64,000 nucleotides of DNA, taken from sequence record PQ850631.1. One strand, 5' to 3'. The translations under genes and the position numbers were made by a program. The stretch's first letter is position 1; each line of letters begins with the position of its first letter. Source of the DNA: Escherichia phage VerenaGrendelmeier_Bas101. Shown here piece by piece: positions 1,858-58,205 of this stretch. The notes beneath the pieces were generated by a model. That model searched no databases. It was not told where the DNA came from and saw only the letters and a program-made list of their open reading frames with translations.

Positions 1858-1890
1858 ATTCATCGGCAAAGGATTGCCGCGAGTTTTATA

Positions 1891-2160
1891 CGTATAATGA
1901 CGTATCATCCGTATCAAGTAAGTTGTTGTTTTCAAAAGAATCTTACGGATGATACGCGTTGCCGCCGTACCATATAGGAATTCAAATAAATTAATTTAAA
2001 ATTATATATCTAATTTAATTTTATTTTTTTATAAACTCTTATATATGAAAAGTATCCGTATCATCCGTATCATCCGTAGCACACCAGTGATAGCGCGACT
2101 TATACACCGATACGGATAAAAATACGCCTCATTTTATCCGTATCATCCGTATCACACTAA
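1891..2160. repeat. iteron-like region: at least 8 copies of the 9-10-mer TCATCCGTA(TCA), both orientations, flanking an AT-rich tract (1981-2050)
   Basis: Copies at 1905-1916, 1943-1953 (rc), 2052-2078 (three tandem), 2109-2118 (rc), 2135-2154. Shares blocks with 54327-54615. Confidence 0.7.
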
Positions 2161-2211
2161 TAAAGGCGCGGCTATATCGGTTGTTATACATATTCAAACC
2201 ATAATTATTGT

Positions 2212-2240
2212 TTGCCTAAGTTTTTTTCATTAGATATAAT
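2212..2240 (+). promoter_or_regulatory. sigma70-like promoter TTGCCT-17-TATAAT for the structural operon
   Basis: -35 at 2212-2217, 17-bp spacer, -10 at 2235-2240, about 25 nt upstream of the 2264 start. Confidence 0.4.
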
Positions 2241-2263
2241 ACACAATACTTATTTGAGGGTGG

Positions 2264-4319: not shown

Positions 4320-5459
4320 ATGACTCGCATTAGCCAAACACACTCTCGCCTCCCAGCGAGCAAGGTGCGCCCTTTTGATATGCAATCCGTTACTGACGCG
4401 GCTGTTTCCCAGCTTGCTCGTATCGGTATTGTGTTTGATTCCGCGATTGTGCGTGATCAGATTGAGCACTTAAACCGTGCAGGCGCTTTCCGCGTAGGTG
4501 ACGCCGCGTTTACTGCGCCGCAGACTACTCCGTCAATCCCGACCCCGTTGCAATTCCTGCAGCAGTGGCTGCCTGGCTTCGTCAAAATCATGACCGCTGC
4601 TCGTAAAATCGACGAGCTGGTTGGTATTGATACCGTTGGTCAGTGGGAAGATGCAGAAATCGTTCAGGGCATCGTTGAACCAGCTGGCACCGCAGTTGAA
4701 TATGGTGATTTCACATCTATTCCTCTGGCAAGCTGGAACGTAAACTTTGAACGTCGTTCTATCGTTCGTGGCGAAATGGGCATGGCAGTTGGTATGCTGG
4801 AAGAAGGCCGCGCATCCGCTATGCGTCTGAACTCCGCAGAAACCAAGCGCCAGCAGGCTGCTGTATCTCTGGAAATCATGCGTAACGCAATCGGCTTCTA
4901 TGGTTGGTACAACGGGAACAACCGCACATTCGGCTTCCTGAATGATCCAAACCTGCCAGCAGCGATGACTTCCAACACCACTTCCGGCTGGGCTACTGCG
5001 ACTTTCCAACAGGTAACTGCAGACATCCGTTTGATGGTTCGTCAAATTCGTGTGAACTCTCAGGACCAGATTGATCCAGAGAAAGTTGACATGACTCTGG
5101 CGCTGCCGACTAACTCTATCGATTGGCTGTCCAACACCACTGACTTCGGTATTTCTGTACGTGACTGGATCACCCAGACTTATCCGAAGATGAAGATCAA
5201 ATCTGCACCGGAACTCAACGGCGCACTTGGCAGTGACCCGACTTTCTTGAACGTGGCATACCTGTACGCCGATCACATCGATTCCTCAATCGATGGTTCA
5301 AGCGATGATGGTTCCGTATTCAGTCAGCTGGTTCAAACCAAGTTCATGACTCTGGGCGTTGAAAAGCGTGCTAAGAGCTACGTTGAAGACTACGCAAACG
5401 CAACAGCAGGCGTTCTGCTCAAGCGTCCGTTCGCAGTCGTCCGTATGACTGGTATTTAA
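4320..5459 (+). CDS. major capsid protein
   Basis: 379 aa, position after scaffold, strongly optimised codon usage, followed by a hairpin; resembles the DUF2184-type capsid family. Confidence 0.7.
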
Positions 5460-5486
5460 TTGCTGTGATTACACAGTAAAACACAT

Positions 5487-5512
5487 GGGGCGTGGTCGAA
5501 AGGCTTCGCCCC
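5487..5512 (+). terminator. GC-rich hairpin after capsid gene (attenuator/terminator)
   Basis: GGGGCG...CGCCCC stem at 5487-5512; weak U-tract. Confidence 0.4.
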
Positions 5513-5574
5513 ATATCAATAGACCTCAAGGGCTGTAGGGGCTTATCTGAGGCTTATATAAATAGGACTACAAA

Positions 5575-41509: not shown

Positions 41510-41537
41510 TTGACTTTGTATCACTCAATATTATACT
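41510..41537 (+). promoter_or_regulatory. sigma70-like promoter for the rightward early block (TTGACT-16-TATACT)
   Basis: -35 at 41510-41515, -10 at 41532-41537, about 30 nt upstream of the primase gene. Confidence 0.45.
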
Positions 41538-46276: not shown

Positions 46277-46315
46277 TTATCATCAAAATATTTGCTTTTC
46301 TGACGAGGTGATATT

Positions 46316-47373: not shown

Positions 47374-47865
47374 ATGATCATTCATCGCCCTTTAATGTTA
47401 AACAAAGAAGAGTGTGAAGAAATTTTACACGCATTGAGACGTGCAGAGGCAGATGTCAACATTCGTGTAAAGGTAAGAAACTTTATCATGAATGAGTTTA
47501 AAGGTTATGATGTTGACTATGCCATCGATAAATTACTGAATCGAAACGTCAAGGGTGCAACAAGACCTATTCACCATCAATCACGTTGCGTAAGAGTTCC
47601 TATTAAAACTTATGTTGATAAAAAGCCGCGCCTTAAGCCAATTGACATATTTGACATAAAGAACGGCTACTCAATCATAAGCAAGGACGCGGAAGAGGGT
47701 GCAATTCCTGTCAATGGCCGAGTGATTCACGTGTCGCACGATGCTGATCAGACTTTAATTCAATGGGTAAGGTTTGATAACACTGGCGGCGGCAAATATC
47801 GCTACTATGGCGACGAGCGATTCACCACTAAATTCTATAAGGTACTCGACCATGGCTCATGTTAA
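47374..47865 (+). CDS. hypothetical protein
   Basis: ATG start. Confidence 0.45.
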   Translation: MIIHRPLMLNKEECEEILHALRRAEADVNIRVKVRNFIMNEFKGYDVDYAIDKLLNRNVKGATRPIHHQSRCVRVPIKTYVDKKPRLKPIDIFDIKNGYSIISKDAEEGAIPVNGRVIHVSHDADQTLIQWVRFDNTGGGKYRYYGDERFTTKFYKVLDHGSC

Positions 47866-48199
47866 AGACGAAGTGCTGTTTGGCGCAGAGATTAAGAAAC
47901 GTGTCAGAGAAATGGCAGGAGAAGAAAGAATGAAGTCGCTGCGAAAAGGTTTTGATCACATCAATGGCGTATCCGGCACGAAGGAGATGGGCGTGTTGGT
48001 AAAAGACATTCGCATTGGCGATGTCATGGTCATCGACCGACAAGCGCGCGTCGTTATCCAGGTACAGCCGAACGATGATGAAGGTTGTGTCCTATTGAAG
48101 CTGAAGAAGCTTTCATCCAGCCCAGCGAAAGCCGTCATCAAGAAGGTATGGCCCGAAGGATTACGCAAACTCATTCGTCGACCCGTGGAGAATGTTTAA
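47852..48199 (+). CDS. hypothetical protein
   Basis: Internal ATG chosen to minimise overlap with upstream gene. Confidence 0.4.
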   Translation: MAHVKDEVLFGAEIKKRVREMAGEERMKSLRKGFDHINGVSGTKEMGVLVKDIRIGDVMVIDRQARVVIQVQPNDDEGCVLLKLKKLSSSPAKAVIKKVWPEGLRKLIRRPVENV

Positions 48200-48435
48200 T
48201 GGAAGATTATATCAACGCTATGTATATGGCATTCTATGTCGTGCAACTTCCCAATGGCGCGGTATTTTATGGCGAGTATACCTTTGACGTTCAATATGAC
48301 GTTTCAGAGCGTACAGTGTTAACAAGGGAGTTGATTGCGGACCTTAAGGACGACATCAAACGCGTCGCGCGGCAGCAGTTCAATTTGGATGACACAGTCA
48401 TCGTTCGAATTACCGGAATAACAGAGGTGCAGTGA
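48199..48435 (+). CDS. hypothetical protein
   Basis: TAATG overlap. Confidence 0.4.
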   Translation: MEDYINAMYMAFYVVQLPNGAVFYGEYTFDVQYDVSERTVLTRELIADLKDDIKRVARQQFNLDDTVIVRITGITEVQ

Positions 48436-48764
48436 TGACCCGTGATCAGATACTCGCCGCGCATGAGCGTGGACTGATAAAGGAAGTGTGGAAGAAGGCC
48501 AATGCATTTGCTGATTCTTATTACTTCTTAAAGAAGTGCATAAAAGAAAATGCAAGAATGGGCAACACAGTATTGACTTTCAATCTTCTGTCTTATGGCG
48601 AAAGGCTTAATGCAATATATGCTTGTAGACTAGCCAGCATGAAGTTTGATAGAGGAAATGACGGAGAGTTGACCATCTATCGATTCTCTCACCGGACGGG
48701 TGATACAAAGATAACAAGGACACGTGAACAGATAGAGATTGACCTACTCCACTATGTAAAATGA
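48435..48764 (+). CDS. hypothetical protein
   Basis: AGAGGTG RBS, ATG at 48435. Confidence 0.4.
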   Translation: MTRDQILAAHERGLIKEVWKKANAFADSYYFLKKCIKENARMGNTVLTFNLLSYGERLNAIYACRLASMKFDRGNDGELTIYRFSHRTGDTKITRTREQIEIDLLHYVK

Positions 48765-48769
48765 ATATC

Positions 48770-48849
48770 AAAAAGGTGAGCTAAATGCTTGCCTTTTCTT
48801 TTATCAATACCTATACTCTTTTCATCAAGACGAACAATTGAGGTGAATT
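48770..48849 (+). promoter_or_regulatory. terminator-promoter cassette, copy A (hairpin overlapping -35, TTGCCT-17-TATACT)
   Basis: AAAAGGTGAGCTAAATGCTTGCCTTTT hairpin plus T-tract; -35 at 48789-48794, -10 at 48812-48817; homologous to 50021-50097. Confidence 0.5.
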
Positions 48850-49167
48850 ATGATTTACTTAGGAATGGACCAGGAACAAAACGAGTTGCTAGGAAGCGTG
48901 TTAAACGTAGACTTGAACACAGCTGTACACATCAAGCCTTGGCCAGAGGACCACGGCGACGTAGTTGTACCCGTTGCGCCTTGGACGCGTTACGTGGCCA
49001 TTGACAATGACGGCCTCGTACATTGTTATTCAGAAAAGCCGACTTACTTCGAAAAGTATCACCAATGGCTGATGACTGGATGGGCAAAGGTGCGCTGTTG
49101 CGGCGAAGTCAGTCTGGAAGGCTGGAGCTTCGAGGCTAGTGAATCGTGTGTCGAGGTGAAATTATGA
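48850..49167 (+). CDS. hypothetical protein (shares a domain with 52644-53135)
   Basis: RYVAIDNDGLVHCYSEKPTYFEKYHQWL parallels RFVARDSNGTIWAYEEKPVWEERRGQWL. Confidence 0.45.
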   Translation: MIYLGMDQEQNELLGSVLNVDLNTAVHIKPWPEDHGDVVVPVAPWTRYVAIDNDGLVHCYSEKPTYFEKYHQWLMTGWAKVRCCGEVSLEGWSFEASESCVEVKL

Positions 49168-49382
49168 ATGCCGCGCTGGGTAAGTTGTCGTTCAATAAGC
49201 GTAACGAATTGCGCATGGTGTCGCGCTTTCAACAAACGCATTTATCACTAATCAAGATTGCAAACAAGGCCTACTCTCTAAATTGTCCTGAAGAAGAATG
49301 GAAAGAATTGAATGAGCGTCATAAACAATTACAAAAGGCTGCATTTAAGCTGCAGCAATATGCTATGGAGTATGCAAAATGA
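49164..49382 (+). CDS. hypothetical protein
   Basis: ATGA overlap. Confidence 0.4.
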   Translation: MNAALGKLSFNKRNELRMVSRFQQTHLSLIKIANKAYSLNCPEEEWKELNERHKQLQKAAFKLQQYAMEYAK

Positions 49383-49762
49383 GAATGAAGCGTTGCCCTT
49401 ACTGCCACGATGTGATGCATCTTCCACACGAAGAGTTTGTGCAGCACATGACTAACTGTGATAAGAATCCTAAGAGCGAAAGCCAACTTGAAGAAAGAAT
49501 GTTCTTGGTGTCATTCAAAGCTTCTGCTTATGAAGTGCAACGTTCTTACGGCGCACCAAGTACGATTTACTGTCCAACAACGTTGAGAAGCGACATCGAC
49601 TCAATTCAGCTTTCGACTTGGATTAACGTTAAGGAAGGAGTCACGCCTCACTTTATTGCGCGCATTCAATCTCAGATTCTACAAATCAAGCGCGAATACA
49701 ACCGTGACATCACTGAAGTGAAGGTGTTGTCTATCACGCCGATGAATAAGGAGATGCCGTGA
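49379..49762 (+). CDS. hypothetical protein with N-terminal Cys/His motif
   Basis: CPYCH...H...C near the N-terminus. Confidence 0.4.
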   Translation: MRMKRCPYCHDVMHLPHEEFVQHMTNCDKNPKSESQLEERMFLVSFKASAYEVQRSYGAPSTIYCPTTLRSDIDSIQLSTWINVKEGVTPHFIARIQSQILQIKREYNRDITEVKVLSITPMNKEMP

Positions 49763-50019
49763 ACAAGGGTCCGATGACGAAGTTGGCCGTTGCCGCGCGG
49801 AAGCTTCGACAAGCCGTTAATGGGTCGCGGCCCGTGGCATTAACACTCGACGACGCAAAGGCACTGGTAGAGCTACTCGACGAGCACAACCGACGCAAGA
49901 ATCTGGAGAACACATTACGCTGGCGCGTTACTCCGAAAGGGCGGGAGAGTGAAAAGAAAGCTTACTTGCGACGCAAACTAAGGTCAGTCGGCCTCCACGA
50001 AGAAGCAAAGAATATTTAA
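49759..50019 (+). CDS. hypothetical protein
   Basis: GTG start after AAGGAG. Confidence 0.35.
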   Translation: MNKGPMTKLAVAARKLRQAVNGSRPVALTLDDAKALVELLDEHNRRKNLENTLRWRVTPKGRESEKKAYLRRKLRSVGLHEEAKNI

Positions 50020-50020
50020 T

Positions 50021-50097
50021 TCAAAAAGGTGAGCTATATGCTTGCCTTTTTATTTGACTGTATTATACTTAGTTCATCAAGCAAAGGAGATTTGATT
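50021..50097 (+). promoter_or_regulatory. terminator-promoter cassette, copy B (TTGCCT-17-TATACT)
   Basis: AAAAGGTGAGCTATATGCTTGCCTTTTT; -35 at 50044-50049, -10 at 50067-50072; then AAGGAGA RBS of next gene. Confidence 0.5.
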
Positions 50098-50349
50098 ATG
50101 CGTATCAAACCAGCAACCCATCGAGTCCAAGACCTAAGTGGCTTTCTTGAGAAGCAAATTAACATTAATGAATTGAAAGGTGATATTTCAGCGTATTTTT
50201 CAATTAAGCAGATGCAGTTGGATGCGCAAGAAGATGGTGATATGGAAATGGCTGCTGCATTTGGATCAAGTATGAGACAGATTCGTGAGAAGTATGACGA
50301 AAGAGTTTGGAAAAAAGAGATTGGATTGATTCAAGCAAAGGAGAAATGA
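50098..50349 (+). CDS. hypothetical protein
   Basis: AAGGAGA RBS, ATG at 50098. Confidence 0.45.
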   Translation: MRIKPATHRVQDLSGFLEKQININELKGDISAYFSIKQMQLDAQEDGDMEMAAAFGSSMRQIREKYDERVWKKEIGLIQAKEK

Positions 50350-50657
50350 TTATGAGTTACGACGAAAGGTTTGGCAGAAGCGTATTGTTTCATGATGCTG
50401 TTTGGATGGACAGCCAAGATGTTGTCTGCGTAGCGTTGAATGAATCTTATAACGGTGTGCTCAAGCCGTTCAAAATCGGTGAGACATACGAGCTGTTTCA
50501 CGGATGGTTGACGCGTCGCAACAACCTTCCTGATATGGAAGTCTGGTGGATAGAATACAAGGGTCAGGCTCATCGGTGCAAGGTTGTAGAGATGCACGGC
50601 GTCAAATACTATCAATCGATTATCAGCGGCTTTGTTTTTAAAGAGGGTGAGATATGA
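50346..50657 (+). CDS. hypothetical protein
   Basis: ATG overlapping upstream stop. Confidence 0.4.
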   Translation: MIMSYDERFGRSVLFHDAVWMDSQDVVCVALNESYNGVLKPFKIGETYELFHGWLTRRNNLPDMEVWWIEYKGQAHRCKVVEMHGVKYYQSIISGFVFKEGEI

Positions 50658-50959
50658 GCACCGAAGCGATGAAGAGCAAGTTGTTGAAGGTGATGCAGGC
50701 CGCTGTCGAGTGCGGCGCTATTCAGGATTTCAAAGAGACGCAAGAAGGCGGTGAGCCAGTATTCTTCTTCAAGAACAAGAAAGGTGCGGCGGCTGCGGTG
50801 ATGCTCTTGAAGAACAGCGACACGACCTTTATCCTTTGCGCAGGCGGTTATGACCTTGTTGCCGATGACTCTTACATCACCTGCGCGACGGGTATTAATC
50901 CTATGTTAACGTTCGAGCGTCGCGGTATTCGTGTTGCGACATTTGGAGGCTGTTTATGA
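50654..50959 (+). CDS. hypothetical protein
   Basis: ATG start with RBS. Confidence 0.4.
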   Translation: MSTEAMKSKLLKVMQAAVECGAIQDFKETQEGGEPVFFFKNKKGAAAAVMLLKNSDTTFILCAGGYDLVADDSYITCATGINPMLTFERRGIRVATFGGCL

Positions 50960-51252
50960 AACTAAGTTTAGCACAAGTCCAAACATTATACCGTATGGAA
51001 GACGGGACGCGATATATGTTGCGTGGCGATTGCAAGAAGGCTCATGAGAAGCGCCCATCGCTGTTTCATGACGTCAATGCACCATCAATCCCTGTCTTGT
51101 TTCGCCTTGGGCTTGTTGATTGGGCGGTTCAAGGAGAAAAAGACCCAAGGCTATATTCATTTGTGGTGATGACAAAGAAGGGTCGCGAGGCATTACAAGG
51201 AATTAAAGAGAATATGAGAAGAGGAAAATACTATTATGACATCCAACCTTAA
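50956..51252 (+). CDS. hypothetical protein
   Basis: ATG start with GGAGG RBS. Confidence 0.4.
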   Translation: MKLSLAQVQTLYRMEDGTRYMLRGDCKKAHEKRPSLFHDVNAPSIPVLFRLGLVDWAVQGEKDPRLYSFVVMTKKGREALQGIKENMRRGKYYYDIQP

Positions 51253-54016: not shown

Positions 54017-54038
54017 GAGGGCCGATTGGCCCTTTTTG
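54017..54038 (+). terminator. rho-independent terminator ending the early block
   Basis: GGGCCGATTGGCCC followed by TTTTT. Confidence 0.65.
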
Positions 54039-54039
54039 T

Positions 54040-54290
54040 TTGCCTGTGGTATGTGAGGATTTATTATCGGATAAAGCGATTGATTTGTGCAAATCTATTA
54101 GAGGGTCATGGGTAGTGAGGATTGTGACGTGAATTTTGTGTCTTGAATATGTGTGCGAATCTGGAAGATTATTGTACTGTGGTGCTGTGGGATTGTAGAG
54201 GGAATCACTAGGAATTGGAGCGTGTACCGTGGTGTGTGGTCCTGTAGGCTGCGCCGTCTATGGGATTGTCGCTTGAAATTAAAAAGGAGA
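54040..54290. repeat. non-coding GT-rich tract with GGGATTGT / GAGGATTGT repeats
   Basis: Strong G+T skew on plus strand; no ORF; repeats near 54118, 54192, 54262. Confidence 0.5.
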
Positions 54291-54326
54291 TATAGTTAGC
54301 TGGCTAACCTTACGCATAGAATTTAA

Positions 54327-54615
54327 GCGTATAATGACGTAAGATTTGGACCTATCCGTAGTTCACTCCACACACTTCTATGGTGCGCCGCGACTGGGTT
54401 CAGTGGTACATCTTACGGATGATACGGATGATACGCGTCGCCGCTATACTTTATACAACTTTGAAAAAAACAATTAACTCCATTTTGAATTAATTTAAAT
54501 TAATTTTTTTCTACATCCTCATACTTATACTAAACTTATATTTATACGTATTATCCGTAAGATATAAGTAAAAACAAAGACTTGCGGCAATACGGATGAT
54601 ACGTCACGATACGCT
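54327..54615. repeat. second iteron-like region homologous to 1891-2160
   Basis: Shared blocks GCGTATAATGACGTA, ATCTTACGGATGATACG...GCCGC, AT-rich AATTAATTTAAA tract, TATCCGTA copies. Confidence 0.65.
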
Positions 54616-54778
54616 TCAACCAGCCAGCAGCGGCTAAGTCATTGATTTGCATAACAAGCGACGAAAGGGATGGATTTCTTTTATACGTATCAAACAGTAC
54701 ACCACGCACCACGGTCCGTTATCCATCCAGCACTATGATTTGTGTACGTTTATAGCCATAATGAACATCAATCTGCAC

Positions 54779-56906: not shown

Positions 56907-56934
56907 TTTACTTCTTCGTACACTCGCGTATACT
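56907..56934 (+). promoter_or_regulatory. sigma70-like promoter TTTACT-16-TATACT with conserved GTACACT spacer and TTGTTTATATCGAGA leader
   Basis: Near-identical architecture to 57305-57333. Confidence 0.45.
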
Positions 56935-56988
56935 TGTTTATATCGAGACGGGCGATGGCCCTTCCTTCTACTAGCATCGGGAGTTTTA

Positions 56989-57304: not shown

Positions 57305-57333
57305 TTTACTTCTTCGTACACTAAGACTATAAT
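57305..57333 (+). promoter_or_regulatory. sigma70-like promoter TTTACT-17-TATAAT, paralog of 56907-56934
   Basis: Shares CTTTACTTCTTCGTACACT and the GTTTTATATCGAGAG leader. Confidence 0.45.
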
Positions 57334-57400
57334 GTTTTATATCGAGAGGGGATGAGGTAGCGAATAGGTCGCTACCCGCCCGACCAACTAGGAGATTATT

Positions 57401-57691: not shown

Positions 57692-57710
57692 TATCCTTCC
57701 GTTACTAATA

Positions 57711-57736
57711 GGCCGCGCTTAGTCGCGGCTTTTCTT
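57711..57736 (+). terminator. rho-independent terminator
   Basis: GCCGCG...CGCGGC stem followed by TTTTCTT. Confidence 0.6.
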
Positions 57737-57854
57737 CGTCCCTATCTCGATGCGCTTCTCCGCGAAAACTCCTTTATCCTTCCCTTCGTCGTCGCATAAT
57801 CTTCGTCGAGATGCGCCTTAGTTCGCATAACAGGTATTACGTTAAATGGAGAAC

Positions 57855-57931
57855 ATCGCGTAAGTCCTTGTTTTATATAGACACCTATATCGGACCGTTA
57901 GGGCGGGTCGCGTAAGTCGTTGTTTTATAAA
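57855..57931 (+). repeat. direct repeat pair TCGCGTAAGTC(C/G)TTGTTTTATA
   Basis: Copies at 57855-57879 and 57907-57931; shares TTGTTTTATA with the leaders of the two promoters upstream. Confidence 0.55.
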
Positions 57932-58055
57932 GGCGCAAAACTTTCCCTTCGTTCCGAACTAAAACGAGGAATATGCCGACCCTTCGCCCGAAAATAGTAC
58001 GCATGCGAAATCACATGCATCTCGAATAATCCCCACCGATATTATCCTACACGCA

Positions 58056-58118
58056 ATCATTCGCTTTCGAATCATTATGCTTCATATTATTATGCGTCGA
58101 ATCATTCGCTTTCGAATT
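58056..58118 (+). repeat. direct repeat pair AATCATTCGCTTTCGAAT
   Basis: Copies at 58056-58073 and 58101-58118, each with a TTCGAA palindrome. Confidence 0.55.
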
Positions 58119-58205
58119 GTAACGCTGGAAACTGTAACGGCGATTGATTATTGCGTTCGTGTGGTTTTTAGGGCATGGGTCTTTTGGTGCGTTTTGGTGC
58201 TTGAT

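What the first reader, a model, noticed from the sequence alone, without database searches (positions are those of the whole stretch)
48770..50097. Duplicated terminator-promoter cassette within the early gene block
Two ~80-bp elements (48770-48849 and 50021-50097) share AAAAGGTGAGCTA(A/T)ATGCTTGCCTTTT (imperfect hairpin plus T-run) overlapping a TTGCCT -35, then a TATACT -10 at 17-bp spacing, a conserved TTCATCAAG and an RBS. The same TTGCCT -35 occurs in the late promoter at 2212. These look like re-initiation points that split the early block into sub-operons.
Basis: seen in the sequence. Interest (0 to 1): 0.4.

Follow-up and report, generated by a model that had tools for sequence, protein, structure and literature searches.

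The report
Duplicated terminator-promoter cassette in a coliphage
Two copies of an ~80-base non-coding unit, a transcription stop hairpin fused to a restart promoter and ribosome-binding site, punctuate a long run of small genes in a Wifcevirus-type E. coli phage; they are very strongly conserved, but this is an ordinary, already recognised way for phages to organise their genes.

Summary
The window is a Wifcevirus-like E. coli myovirus. The 27-nt core AAAAGGTGAGCTAWATGCTTGCCTTTT occurs exactly twice (48771-48797, 50024-50050; 0 expected by chance). Each copy is followed by TTGCCT-N17/N16-TATACT, TTCATCAAG, a Shine-Dalgarno sequence and ATG. One correction: the spacer in copy B is 16 nt, not 17.

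Each copy fills one of the two main intergenic gaps in the packed gene array 45.6-54.0 kb. The hairpin contains two G·U pairs, so it folds better as + strand RNA (-13.7/-14.7 kcal/mol) than as - strand RNA (-11.0/-9.7).

All 28 GenBank Wifcevirus records carry exactly two copies. In 15-17 aligned genomes the flanking genes vary at 26-44% of sites. Both stems, both -10 boxes and both TTCATCAAG motifs (74 nt in all) show no variable site.

WFC and WFH records already annotate the two hairpins as predicted terminators. At least four analogous composites with unrelated hairpins occur elsewhere in the window.

The closest known concept is the PeSL cassette of T4-type phages. The cassette edges are gene insertion/deletion junctions, including a window-specific gene at 50098-50349. 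So are most other junctions in the block, and no genome has lost the A-B interval.

No transcript data exist. Low novelty.

The parts
48432..48764 (+). Last gene of the upstream operon (110 aa, unknown function). Its TGA stop (48762-48764) lies 6 nt before hairpin A.
   Evidence: ORF list; no PHROG or Pfam match.
48771..48797 (+). Hairpin A: AAAAGGTGAGC-TAAAT-GCTTGCCTTTT. It has 11 pairs, including U·G and G·U wobbles. The core GGTGAGC/GCTTGCC forms the terminator stem.
   Evidence: RNA fold -13.7 kcal/mol, z -4.0; the - strand folds at only -11.0 with an internal loop. The 9-bp core folds at -11.2, z -5.0. The scanner calls it a terminator. No variable site in 15 aligned genomes. WFC annotates the homologue as a putative terminator, -10.10.
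48794..48802 (+). T-run TTTTCTTTT (the U-tract of terminator A). It overlaps the end of the stem and of the -35.
   Evidence: Sequence; terminator scan.
48789..48817 (+). Promoter A: -35 TTGCCT (inside the 3' arm of the hairpin), 17-nt spacer, -10 TATACT.
   Evidence: 9 of 12 consensus matches. Both hexamers are invariant in the aligned relatives.
48821..48829 (+). Conserved TTCATCAAG. The predicted start point is the A at 48824, 7 nt after the -10.
   Evidence: Identical in both paralogues and invariant in the 15 aligned genomes. One unverified record, PQ604604.1, which was left out of that alignment, has TTCATCAAT. The start position is inferred from standard sigma-70 geometry.
48830..48852 (+). 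Leader A with SD GAGGTG (48840-48845) and ATG (48850).
   Evidence: The leader is variable at 40% of sites, but the SD and ATG are kept.
48850..50019 (+). Four-gene sub-operon between the cassettes: 48850-49167, ~49164-49382, 49379-49762, 49759-50019. All are of unknown function.
   Evidence: Only phrog_1972 (unknown function) matches the first gene. The spacing between the two hairpin cores (start to start) is 1252-1253, 1262, 1513, 1539-1540 or 2700 bp in relatives.
50024..50050 (+). Hairpin B: AAAAGGTGAGC-TATAT-GCTTGCCTTTT. It starts 4 nt after the TAA stop at 50017-50019.
   Evidence: RNA fold -14.7 kcal/mol, z -4.8; the - strand folds at -9.7. The stems are invariant and only the loop varies (TAAAT, TATAT, TAAGT) among relatives.
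50047..50055 (+). T-run TTTTTATTT (the U-tract of terminator B).
50042..50069 (+). Promoter B: -35 TTGCCT, 16-nt spacer, -10 TATACT.
   Evidence: Both hexamers are invariant.
50073..50081 (+). Conserved TTCATCAAG. The predicted start point is the A at 50076.
50082..50100 (+). Leader B with SD AAGGAG (50084-50089) and ATG (50098).
50098..50349 (+). Window-specific 83-aa gene inserted at the 3' edge of cassette B.
   Evidence: Window 50104-50330 has no homologue in any of the 18 relatives compared. tblastn finds homologues only in two Kagunavirus-type E. coli phages and three Cronobacter phage records.
50331..50357 (+). Third, partial copy of the cassette-B leader (TCAAGCAAAGGAGAAATGATTATGAGT). 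With 50077-50103 it forms a direct repeat that brackets the inserted gene. It carries the ancestral SD and ATG of the gene that follows B in most relatives.
   Evidence: the repeat finder family D14, 89% over 27 nt. Sequence. Relatives have TTCATCAAGCAAAGGAGAAATGATTATGAGTTACGACG directly after B.

Best explanation
Each unit is a compact composite regulatory cassette read on the + strand by the host RNA polymerase. Transcripts arriving from the upstream operon form the hairpin GGUGAGC-loop-GCUUGCC, which A·U pairs extend. They reach the U-run directly behind it, and a fraction of them terminate there (intrinsic termination or attenuation). The same DNA that encodes the 3' arm and the U-run is the -35 hexamer (TTGCCT) of a sigma-70-type promoter. 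Its -10 (TATACT) lies 17 or 16 nt further on. Transcription restarts at an A about 27-30 nt past the termination zone, giving a 22-26-nt leader with a Shine-Dalgarno sequence for the next gene. The two paralogous copies therefore cut the gene array downstream of the helicase-primase gene into three transcription units: ~43.96-48.76 kb, 48.85-50.02 kb and 50.10-54.0 kb. They insulate each unit from read-through and re-set its expression level.

Shown: the sequence anatomy, the strand-specific fold, the position, and extreme purifying selection. Inferred: actual termination, actual initiation, the start point and the efficiency. The invariant TTCATCAAG most likely reflects constraint on the start site and the first transcribed bases. 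From my memory of the phage T5 N25 promoter, TTCAT also spans its start site; I did not check this here.
For: - Exact duplicate core, 2 matches against 0 expected; promoter pattern, 3 matches against 0.02 expected.
- The + strand RNA folds at -13.7 and -14.7 kcal/mol (z -4.0 and -4.8). The - strand is weaker, because two G·U pairs become A·C mismatches.
- The hairpins start 4-6 nt after stop codons and are followed by T-runs. The two units are the main non-coding gaps in the packed array 45.6-54.0 kb.
- All 28 Wifcevirus records have exactly two copies. IMG/VR and metagenome copies are identical as well.
- No variable site in the stems (44 nt), the -10 boxes (12 nt) or TTCATCAAG (18 nt). The flanking genes vary at 26-44% of all sites and 49-64% of third codon positions. 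With the 41-44% background seen around copy A, 74 invariant sites would have a probability of about 1e-19 (my calculation).
- In hairpin B only the loop varies.
- ARNold predicted terminators at both homologous sites in WFC and WFH.
- No phage RNA polymerase was found among the large ORFs tested, which fits host sigma-70 promoters.
- The same design, a hairpin plus T-run overlapping or abutting a -35, recurs with unrelated hairpins at 54019-54067 (+), 59951-59906 (-), 24721-24649 (-) and 39846-39793 (-).
Against: - No experimental 5' or 3' end data exist for any Wifcevirus.
- There is no covariation. The stems never vary, so the pairing is supported only by thermodynamics and context. The invariance of the 3' arm could be due to the -35 alone.
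- The -35 matches only 4 of 6 consensus positions. Overall the promoters are 9 of 12, the scanner's minimum score; it lists 39 such sites in 18 kb against 29 expected.
- The stem is short and has two wobble pairs, so termination may be weak.
- The scanner's own T-run rule does not call copy B a terminator.
Confidence: 0.75

Rival explanations
1. Besides regulating transcription, the cassettes act as PeSL-like recombination and gene-capture platforms. Their conserved ~35-85 nt serve as short homology for exchange between co-infecting relatives, or with foreign DNA. Genes are then inserted, deleted or swapped at the cassette edges and are automatically supplied with a stop/terminator, promoter and RBS.
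For: - All four cassette edges are indel junctions in at least one relative.
- WFC and Bas100 carry a 195-bp ORF 5' of A, bracketed by a 22-nt direct repeat AAATGAATATCAAAAAGGTGA. The ORF appears to use the 5' arm of the hairpin as its RBS.
- CWP003 carries an extra ORF 3' of A, bracketed by RBS-like repeats GAGGTGAATTATG and GAGGTGTGATTATG.
- RCIP0319 has 1.45 kb inserted 5' of B.
- The window has a foreign 83-aa gene 3' of B, bracketed by a 27-nt repeat of the leader.
- Four different genes follow B in 19 genomes.
- The gene after A exists as two alleles, 81-92% and 67-70% amino-acid identity to the window's copy, behind a cassette that is at least 93% identical in nucleotides.
- PeSLs are described with exactly this anatomy, including stems overlapping the -35 and G-T pairs (PMC2839356).
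Against: - Indels are also seen at about 7 of 15 other gene junctions in the same stretch. My rough count gives 4 of 4 against 7 of 15, hypergeometric p about 0.09, so enrichment is not demonstrated.
- No genome among the 28 records, nor any fully covered IMG/VR or metagenome contig, has lost or circularly permuted the A-B interval, as A x B recombination would predict.
- Only two sequence-related copies exist per genome, against about 50 in phi1 and RB49.
- Selection for viable junctions alone would also place surviving indels at gene and cassette borders.
Confidence: 0.25
2. The hairpin is not a terminator. It is an RNA 3'-end stabiliser or processing barrier, or a protein-binding stem-loop, on a transcript that reads through. 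Only the promoter half is regulatory.
For: - The stem is short (7 G/C-containing pairs, two of them wobble; about -10 to -11 kcal/mol).
- The T-run is interrupted by a C in copy A and an A in copy B.
- Hairpins without T-runs occur after other genes in the window, for example 5485-5515 after the gene ending at 5459.
Against: - The hairpin is followed directly by 8 T in 9 nt in both copies and preceded by an A-run. This is the canonical intrinsic-terminator arrangement.
- A near-identical hairpin plus T-run lies between convergent genes in Asteriusvirus JNE01, a classical terminator position.
- No Rfam family matches.
Confidence: 0.1
3. TTCATCAAG is an operator for a phage or host regulator that co-ordinately switches the two promoters, rather than a passive start-site context.
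For: - It is as invariant as the -10 hexamer in both paralogues and in all aligned orthologues, while the 3 nt before it and the leader after it vary.
- It occurs exactly, together with TATACT, only at these two places in the window.
Against: - It is 9 nt long, non-palindromic and present once per promoter.
- It spans the predicted start point, where sigma-70 promoters are sequence-sensitive anyway.
- The same TATACT-NNN-TTCATCAAG-N-AAAGG string turns up in unrelated low-GC viral contigs. That argues for a generic promoter/leader optimum rather than a phage-specific operator.
- No candidate regulator was identified.
Confidence: 0.12
4. The similarity is a neutral remnant of a tandem duplication, or a chance resemblance, without function.
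For: Only two copies exist, and both lie in a region full of indels.
Against: - Chance is excluded.
- Neutrality is excluded by 74 invariant functional positions inside a background of 26-44% variable sites.
- The paralogues keep only the functional sub-elements, while the spacer and leader have diverged.
Confidence: 0.02

Closest known systems
PeSLs (promoter-early stem-loops) of T4-type phages: Arbiol et al. 2010 (PMC2839356) and Comeau et al. 2014 (PMC4122927)
   Same: Both are intergenic cassettes of about 100 bp or less. Each is bounded by the stop codon of the upstream gene and the SD and start codon of the downstream gene. Each contains a sigma-70-like promoter and a terminator-like stem-loop. 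The papers describe the stem overlapping the -35 as one of five subclasses, and they note G-T pairs in the stems. PeSLs sit in front of small ORFs of unknown function in a hyperplastic region, and differential ORFs abut them.
   Different: Here there are only two sequence-related copies per genome, plus roughly four or five analogous composites with unrelated hairpins, against about 50 PeSLs per genome. The promoters match 9 of 12 consensus positions rather than the full consensus. The stems are not polyG/polyC. No cassette-by-cassette deletion was seen in any of the 28 records. Mini-circles and reporter activity, which were shown for PeSLs, are untested here. The phage lineage is different: Wifcevirus, distantly related to Pbunavirus.
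Canonical Rho-independent terminator followed by a re-initiation promoter in phage early operons and in bacterial operons (established knowledge, not tested here)
   Same: A hairpin plus U-run lies directly after a stop codon, and a sigma-70 promoter for the next unit lies within a few tens of nucleotides.
   Different: The -35 hexamer is physically inside the 3' arm and U-run of the terminator, so the two functions share the same 9 nt. This sharing forces two G·U pairs into the stem.
ARNold-predicted terminators annotated in GenBank MK373777 (WFC) and MK373776 (WFH), Korf et al. 2019 (PMC6563267)
   Same: They are the same two hairpins at the homologous positions. In WFC they are annotated as 'putative transcriptional terminator, -10.10'; the WFH records list terminators at both sites.
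   Different: Those records annotate only the 19-nt hairpins. The overlapping promoters, the paralogy of the two units, their invariance across the genus and their association with gene indels are not described there.
Short conserved boundary sequences at mosaic junctions of lambdoid and other phages (established concept, from my own knowledge)
   Same: Conserved short non-coding or RBS-like sequences flank swapped genes. The insertions here are bracketed by 13-27-nt direct repeats.
   Different: The repeats here are parts of a transcription cassette rather than anonymous linkers. No preference over ordinary gene junctions has been demonstrated.

Membership tests
Rho-independent (intrinsic) terminator | Stable G/C-containing RNA hairpin on the transcribed strand | tested here: met
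   Folds at -13.7 and -14.7 kcal/mol, z -4.0 and -4.8. The core alone folds at -11.2, z -5.0. The opposite strand is weaker.
Rho-independent (intrinsic) terminator | U-rich tract immediately 3' of the stem | tested here: met
   TTTTCTTTT in copy A and TTTTTATTT in copy B. The scanner calls A but not B; I think its stem extension absorbs the T's in B, but I did not check this.
Rho-independent (intrinsic) terminator | Located just downstream of the stop codon of a co-directional gene | tested here: met
   The hairpin starts 6 nt after TGA 48762-48764 and 4 nt after TAA 50017-50019.
Rho-independent (intrinsic) terminator | Base pairing maintained by compensatory changes among homologues | tested here: inconclusive
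   There are no substitutions in any stem position in the 19 aligned sequences per copy, nor in the IMG/VR and metagenome copies. Only the loop varies.
Rho-independent (intrinsic) terminator | Transcript 3' ends at the U-tract | not testable with these tools
   No transcriptome for any Wifcevirus was found.
Sigma-70 (housekeeping) promoter | -35 and -10 hexamers with 16-18 nt spacing | tested here: met
   TTGCCT-17-TATACT and TTGCCT-16-TATACT, each matching 9 of 12 consensus positions.
Sigma-70 (housekeeping) promoter | Hexamers conserved among relatives, correctly placed before an SD and start codon | tested here: met
   No variable site in either hexamer of either copy. An A lies 7 nt after the -10, followed by a 22-26-nt leader with an SD.
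Sigma-70 (housekeeping) promoter | Primary 5' ends or promoter activity | not testable with these tools
   Needs dRNA-seq or a reporter assay.
PeSL (T4-type mobile regulatory cassette) | Composite of a sigma-70-like promoter and a terminator-like stem-loop within one intergenic cassette, bounded by a stop codon and an SD/start | tested here: met
   Anatomy; definition in PMC2839356.
PeSL (T4-type mobile regulatory cassette) | Large repeated family (about 50 per genome) concentrated in hyperplastic regions | tested here: not met
   There are two sequence-related copies per genome. About four or five further composites have unrelated hairpins.
PeSL (T4-type mobile regulatory cassette) | Differential ORFs between close relatives lie next to the cassettes | tested here: inconclusive
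   Indels occur at 4 of 4 cassette edges, but also at about 7 of 15 other junctions, p about 0.09 (my count).
PeSL (T4-type mobile regulatory cassette) | Recombination between neighbouring cassettes deletes or excises the intervening ORFs (mini-circles) | tested here: not met
   All 28 records keep both copies and an interval of 1.25-2.7 kb. Mini-circles themselves cannot be tested here.
PeSL (T4-type mobile regulatory cassette) | Membership of the T4-type phage lineage | tested here: not met
   The window is a Wifcevirus, distantly related to Pbunavirus.

The most novel reading that the evidence does not exclude
The two cassettes are gene-capture landing pads of a PeSL-like kind in a phage lineage unrelated to T4. 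Every sub-element doubles as short homology for insertion: the stop codon plus the SD-like 5' arm AAGGTGA on the left, and the leader, SD and ATG on the right. Foreign ORFs, such as the window-specific gene at 50098-50349 whose homologues are in Kagunavirus-type and Cronobacter phages, would then be acquired preferentially there and expressed at once. This would extend 'mobile regulatory cassette' evolution beyond T4-type phages. It would also explain why the cassettes are the most conserved sequence in the hypervariable block.
Probability: 0.2. Interest if true: 0.45.

Novelty: new member of a known kind. Interest (0 to 1): 0.2.

Why it matters
The result gives a concrete, testable transcription map for a little-studied phage genus, reported to replicate unusually fast. 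It proposes three sub-operons in the block of small unknown genes, with predicted 3' ends at ~48.80 and 50.05 kb and 5' ends at 48824 and 50076. It identifies the two most constrained non-coding elements of that block. It corrects a mis-annotation: cassette A is called as a 30-aa ORF in Bas98 and Bas99. It also offers a compact 80-bp insulator-plus-promoter part for engineering these phages. Conceptually it adds a non-T4 example to the PeSL-type architecture, but it does not change understanding.

Tried and rejected
- **Covariation in the stem.** I fetched 18 relatives and scanned IMG/VR and metagenomes for further copies. Every Wifcevirus copy has identical stems, so no compensatory change can be scored.
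- **Host origin.** There is no match to the cassette in 5,426 complete E. coli genomes.
- **Known RNA family.** There is no Rfam hit in 48000-51000 at E ≤ 1.
- **Function of the genes in and around the sub-operon.** The only hit is phrog_1972, of unknown function. A Pfam DUF7501 hit is below threshold.
- **Hidden small ORF in the cassette.** Bas98 and Bas99 annotate a 30-aa ORF there. In the window and most relatives the corresponding start reads ATG TAA, so I rejected it.
- **Homology of the hairpin to other phages.** The exact stem occurs in a low-GC 90-kb contig whose only database similarity is about 64% to recombinase genes of Enterococcus, Listeria and Staphylococcus phages. A Watson-Crick version lies between convergent genes in Asteriusvirus. 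I treat both as convergent generic terminators, not as homologues.
- **T4 MotA-box reading of TGCTT in the loop and 3' arm.** I rejected this by inspection, using my own knowledge of the MotA box. The motif lies about 22 nt from the -10 rather than about 12.
- **IHF or DnaA boxes in the spacer.** By eye there is no consensus match.
- **Enrichment of indels at cassette edges.** It is not significant (p about 0.09, my count).
- **A x B deletion variants.** None was found.
Full report
**Identity of the window.** megablast places the window in the genus Wifcevirus, E. coli/Shigella myoviruses of 66-72 kb. The structural half is 92-97.5% identical to relatives. Region 47-52 kb is 87-93% identical with only 69-88% coverage, so it is a mosaic, indel-rich block. 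A greedy ORF map gives four parts:
- a + strand structural block (1-23.8 kb);
- a - strand replication block (23.8-41.4 kb; ligase, helicases, DNA polymerase);
- a + strand block (41.5-55.3 kb) that starts with primase and helicase-primase genes and continues with about 35 small ORFs;
- a mixed region beyond that.

No phage RNA polymerase was seen among the large ORFs tested. The phage therefore presumably relies on host RNA polymerase. Wifceviruses are described as distant relatives of Pbunavirus and as very little studied.

**Check of the observation.**
- The 27-nt core AAAAGGTGAGCTAWATGCTTGCCTTTT is found at 48771-48797 and 50024-50050 and nowhere else, even with 3 mismatches. The shuffles gave a mean of 0.00 and none of 100 reached 2.
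- TTGCCT-N-TATACT follows in both. The spacer is 17 nt in A and 16 nt in B, not 17 in both.
- TATACT-NNN-TTCATCAAG is exact only at these two sites.
- Both end in a Shine-Dalgarno sequence (GAGGTG, AAGGAG) and an ATG (48850, 50098).
- A pairwise alignment shows that the paralogues share only the hairpin/-35, the -10 and TTCATCAAG. The spacer and leader have diverged.
- TTGCCT-N17-TATAAT at 2212-2240 is also real.

**Anatomy and strand.** The arms AAAAGGUGAGC and GCUUGCCUUUU pair over 11 positions as RNA, with a U·G and a G·U in the middle.
- The + strand RNA folds at -13.7 (A) and -14.7 (B) kcal/mol, z -4.0 and -4.8.
- On the - strand the wobbles become A·C mismatches, and the fold drops to -11.0 and -9.7 with an internal loop.
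- The 9-bp core alone folds at -11.2 kcal/mol, z -5.0.
- The hairpins start 6 and 4 nt after the stop codons of co-directional genes. They are preceded by an A-run and followed by TTTTCTTTT (A) or TTTTTATTT (B).
- The -35 hexamer TTGCCT lies inside the 3' arm and the start of the U-run. This explains the wobbles: a fully complementary 3' arm (GCTCACC) would destroy the -35.
- The A located 7 nt after each -10 (48824, 50076) is the expected start point. It sits in the middle of TTCATCAAG.
- The two units are the main non-coding gaps in the packed, often overlapping gene array from 45.6 to 54.0 kb; the only other is a 39-nt gap at 46277-46315.

**Conservation.** blastn with either cassette finds exactly two places in each of the 28 Wifcevirus records, at 92-98% identity. 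I fetched 18 relatives and extracted both copies.
- In alignments of 15 (A) and 17 (B) genomes, the neighbouring genes have 26-44% variable sites. At third codon positions the figure is 49-64%.
- The four stem arms (44 nt), the two -10 hexamers (12 nt) and the two TTCATCAAG motifs (18 nt) have no variable site.
- The loop of B varies (TAAAT, TATAT, TAAGT). The spacers are 14-31% variable and the leaders 25-40%.
- One unverified record, left out of those alignments, has TTCATCAAT in copy A.
- With the 41-44% background seen around copy A, 74 invariant sites have a probability of about 1e-19 (my calculation). Purifying selection on exactly the sub-elements of a terminator-promoter is therefore demonstrated.
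- Because the stems never vary, covariation cannot be scored. IMG/VR and metagenome copies are equally invariant.

**Prior knowledge.** The GenBank record of WFC annotates both hairpins as 'putative transcriptional terminator, -10.10'. The WFH records also list terminators at both sites. The paper states that terminators were predicted with ARNold and gives no promoter or transcript analysis. The vB_Eco4M-7 paper mentions only generic prediction tools. Bas98 and Bas99 annotate cassette A as a 30-aa ORF. That reading frame is closed by ATG TAA in the window and in most relatives, so it is a mis-call. There is no Rfam match and no E. coli chromosomal match.

**Mechanism proposed.** Transcripts from upstream promoters run through the helicase-primase gene and the small ORFs. 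Candidate upstream promoters are TTGACT-N16-TATACT at 41510-41537 and, by my reading of the sequence, TTGCTT-N16-TATAAT near 42.65 kb. A terminator-like hairpin lies at about 43.87 kb.
- At each cassette a fraction of transcripts terminates in the U-run.
- RNA polymerase re-initiates 27-30 nt further on, from the promoter whose -35 is embedded in the terminator.
- This yields units of ~43.96-48.76, 48.85-50.02 and 50.10-54.0 kb.
- A third unit, hairpin GAGGGCCGAUUGGCCCUUUUU at 54.02 kb followed by TTGCCT-N16-TATTAT, closes the block.
- The design is general in this genome. Unrelated hairpins plus T-runs overlap or abut promoters at 59951-59906 (-; the -35 TTTACT overlaps the stem end), 24721-24649 (-) and 39846-39793 (-).

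Termination, initiation, the start point and the efficiency are all inferred. The short wobble-containing stem suggests attenuation rather than a full stop.

**TTCATCAAG.** It is as constrained as the -10. The most economical reading is constraint on the start site and the initial transcribed sequence. From memory, the strong T5 N25 promoter also has TTCAT across its start site; I did not check this here. The extended string TATACT-NNN-TTCATCAAG-N-AAAGG also occurs in at least three unrelated groups of low-GC viral contigs, in promoter-like contexts. That favours a generic optimum over a phage-specific operator, but the operator reading is not excluded.

**Relation to gene flux.** The start-to-start spacing of the two hairpin cores is 1252-1253, 1262, 1513, 1539-1540 or 2700 bp in different phages. 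Pairwise blastn against the window and direct reading show indels at all four cassette edges:
- WFC and Bas100 have a 195-bp ORF 5' of A. It is bracketed by a 22-nt direct repeat AAATGAATATCAAAAAGGTGA, and the 5' arm of the hairpin appears to serve as its RBS.
- CWP003 has an extra ORF 3' of A, bracketed by GAGGTGAATTATG and GAGGTGTGATTATG.
- RCIP0319 has 1.45 kb inserted 5' of B.
- The window itself has an 83-aa gene (50098-50349) 3' of B that none of the 18 relatives has. It is bracketed by a 27-nt repeat of the B leader (50077-50103 and 50331-50357). Its only homologues are in two Kagunavirus-type E. coli phages and three Cronobacter phage records.
- Four different genes follow B among 19 genomes.
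- The gene after A exists as two alleles, 81-92% and 67-70% amino-acid identity to the window's copy, behind a cassette that is at least 93% identical in nucleotides.

This resembles the PeSL cassettes of T4-type phages. PeSLs are composite sigma-70 promoter plus stem-loop units, in some subclasses with the stem over the -35 and with G-T pairs. They lie next to differential ORFans and are proposed to mediate modular shuffling. Three points argue against a special role here:
- About 7 of 15 ordinary gene junctions in the same stretch also carry indels (my count; hypergeometric p about 0.09).
- Only two sequence-related copies exist per genome.
- None of the 28 records has lost the A-B interval.

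I therefore treat a recombination role as a plausible add-on (about 0.25), not as shown. I do not file the element as a PeSL family member.

**Matches outside the genus.** A near-identical hairpin with Watson-Crick pairs, AAAAGGAGAGC-TTAAT-GCTCTCCTTTT, lies between convergent genes in Asteriusvirus JNE01. The exact wobble stem occurs once in a low-GC 90-kb contig whose only database similarity is about 64% to recombinase genes of Enterococcus, Listeria and Staphylococcus phages. I regard both as convergent generic terminators. At most they illustrate that this sequence works as a terminator-type hairpin.

**Verdict.** The element is a conserved, duplicated terminator/attenuator-promoter-leader cassette. 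It is a new member of a well-known kind, and the terminator half is already annotated in two GenBank records. Interest is low (0.2). The most novel reading still open is a PeSL-like gene-capture role outside the T4 lineage (probability about 0.2).

Noticed in passing
window 50098-50357: A window-specific 83-aa gene is inserted directly behind cassette B. It is bracketed by a 27-nt direct repeat of the B leader (50077-50103 and 50331-50357). It is absent from all 18 relatives compared. Its homologues are only in two Kagunavirus-type E. coli phages and three Cronobacter phage records.
   Followed up: yes
window 56907-56952 and 57305-57351: Two paralogous promoters, TTTACT-N16/17-TATACT/TATAAT, have a conserved downstream sequence TTTATATCGAGA(C/G)GGG. 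The stretch ATCGAGAGGG in the second copy is identical to +1..+10 of the T7 A1 transcript, and that copy also shares GCGAATAG further on. The -10 plus this stretch also matches multiple intergenic sites per genome (up to 14 in the listed records) in Asteriusvirus/121Q-like jumbo phages. This may be a widely shared strong-promoter and initial-transcribed-sequence module.
   Followed up: partly
window 1858-2263 and 54300-54646: Two long non-coding regions contain arrays of ATCCGTATCATCCGTA / TACGGATGATACG repeats in both orientations, around very AT-rich cores. A 53-nt segment is shared at 75% identity (1944-1996 and 54423-54475). These are candidate regulator-binding sites, or origin- or packaging-related repeats. 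The second region lies near where the left boundary of the 3.7-kb terminal repeat of WFC would map.
   Followed up: no
window 58039-58126 and 57692-58080: A tandem 45-nt repeat (74% identity) sits at the end of a 389-bp non-coding region with further internal repeats (CGCGTAAGTC-TTGTTTTATA). This is roughly where the right end of the WFC record and its terminal repeat would map, so it is possibly related to the genome end.
   Followed up: no
window 54019-54067 (+), 59951-59906 (-), 24721-24649 (-), 39846-39793 (-): There are further composite units of the same design: a hairpin plus T-run overlapping or abutting the -35 of a sigma-70-like promoter. Their hairpins are unrelated to those of A and B. 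TATACT is a recurrent -10 in this genome.
   Followed up: partly
L004 3990-4082 (Bas98_0076) and L002 3262-3354 (Bas99_0075): Cassette A is annotated as a 30-aa hypothetical protein in the Bas98 and Bas99 records. The frame is closed (ATG TAA) in the window and in most relatives, so this is an annotation artefact.
   Followed up: yes
L020 357-381 (-) and L033 2490-2513 (-), both from IMGVR_UViG_3300044557_000281; also L146 and L063/L097/L130/L145: One unrelated low-GC 90-kb viral contig carries the exact wobble hairpin stem at one site. At another site it carries TTGACA-N17-TATACT-TAA-TTCATCAAG-TAAAGGGGG-ATG. Two other groups of low-GC contigs share TATACT-NNN-TTCATCAAG-N-AAAGG. This is probably convergence on a start-site/leader optimum, but the co-occurrence in a single contig is unexplained.
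   Followed up: partly
L025 1201-1238 (Asteriusvirus JNE01, OR670491.1 117212-117249): A near-identical terminator hairpin with fully Watson-Crick pairs, AAAAGGAGAGC-TTAAT-GCTCTCCTTTTCTTTTAT, sits between convergent genes of a 355-kb jumbo coliphage.
   Followed up: partly
window ~47640-47836: There is a 200-nt stretch inside the gene 47374-47865 with no nucleotide match in most relatives, and the whole gene is absent from four of them. The GenBank records of vB_Eco4M-7 and F13 begin at about this point (window ~47740 and ~47836). This is either an arbitrary assembly start or a real discontinuity.
   Followed up: no
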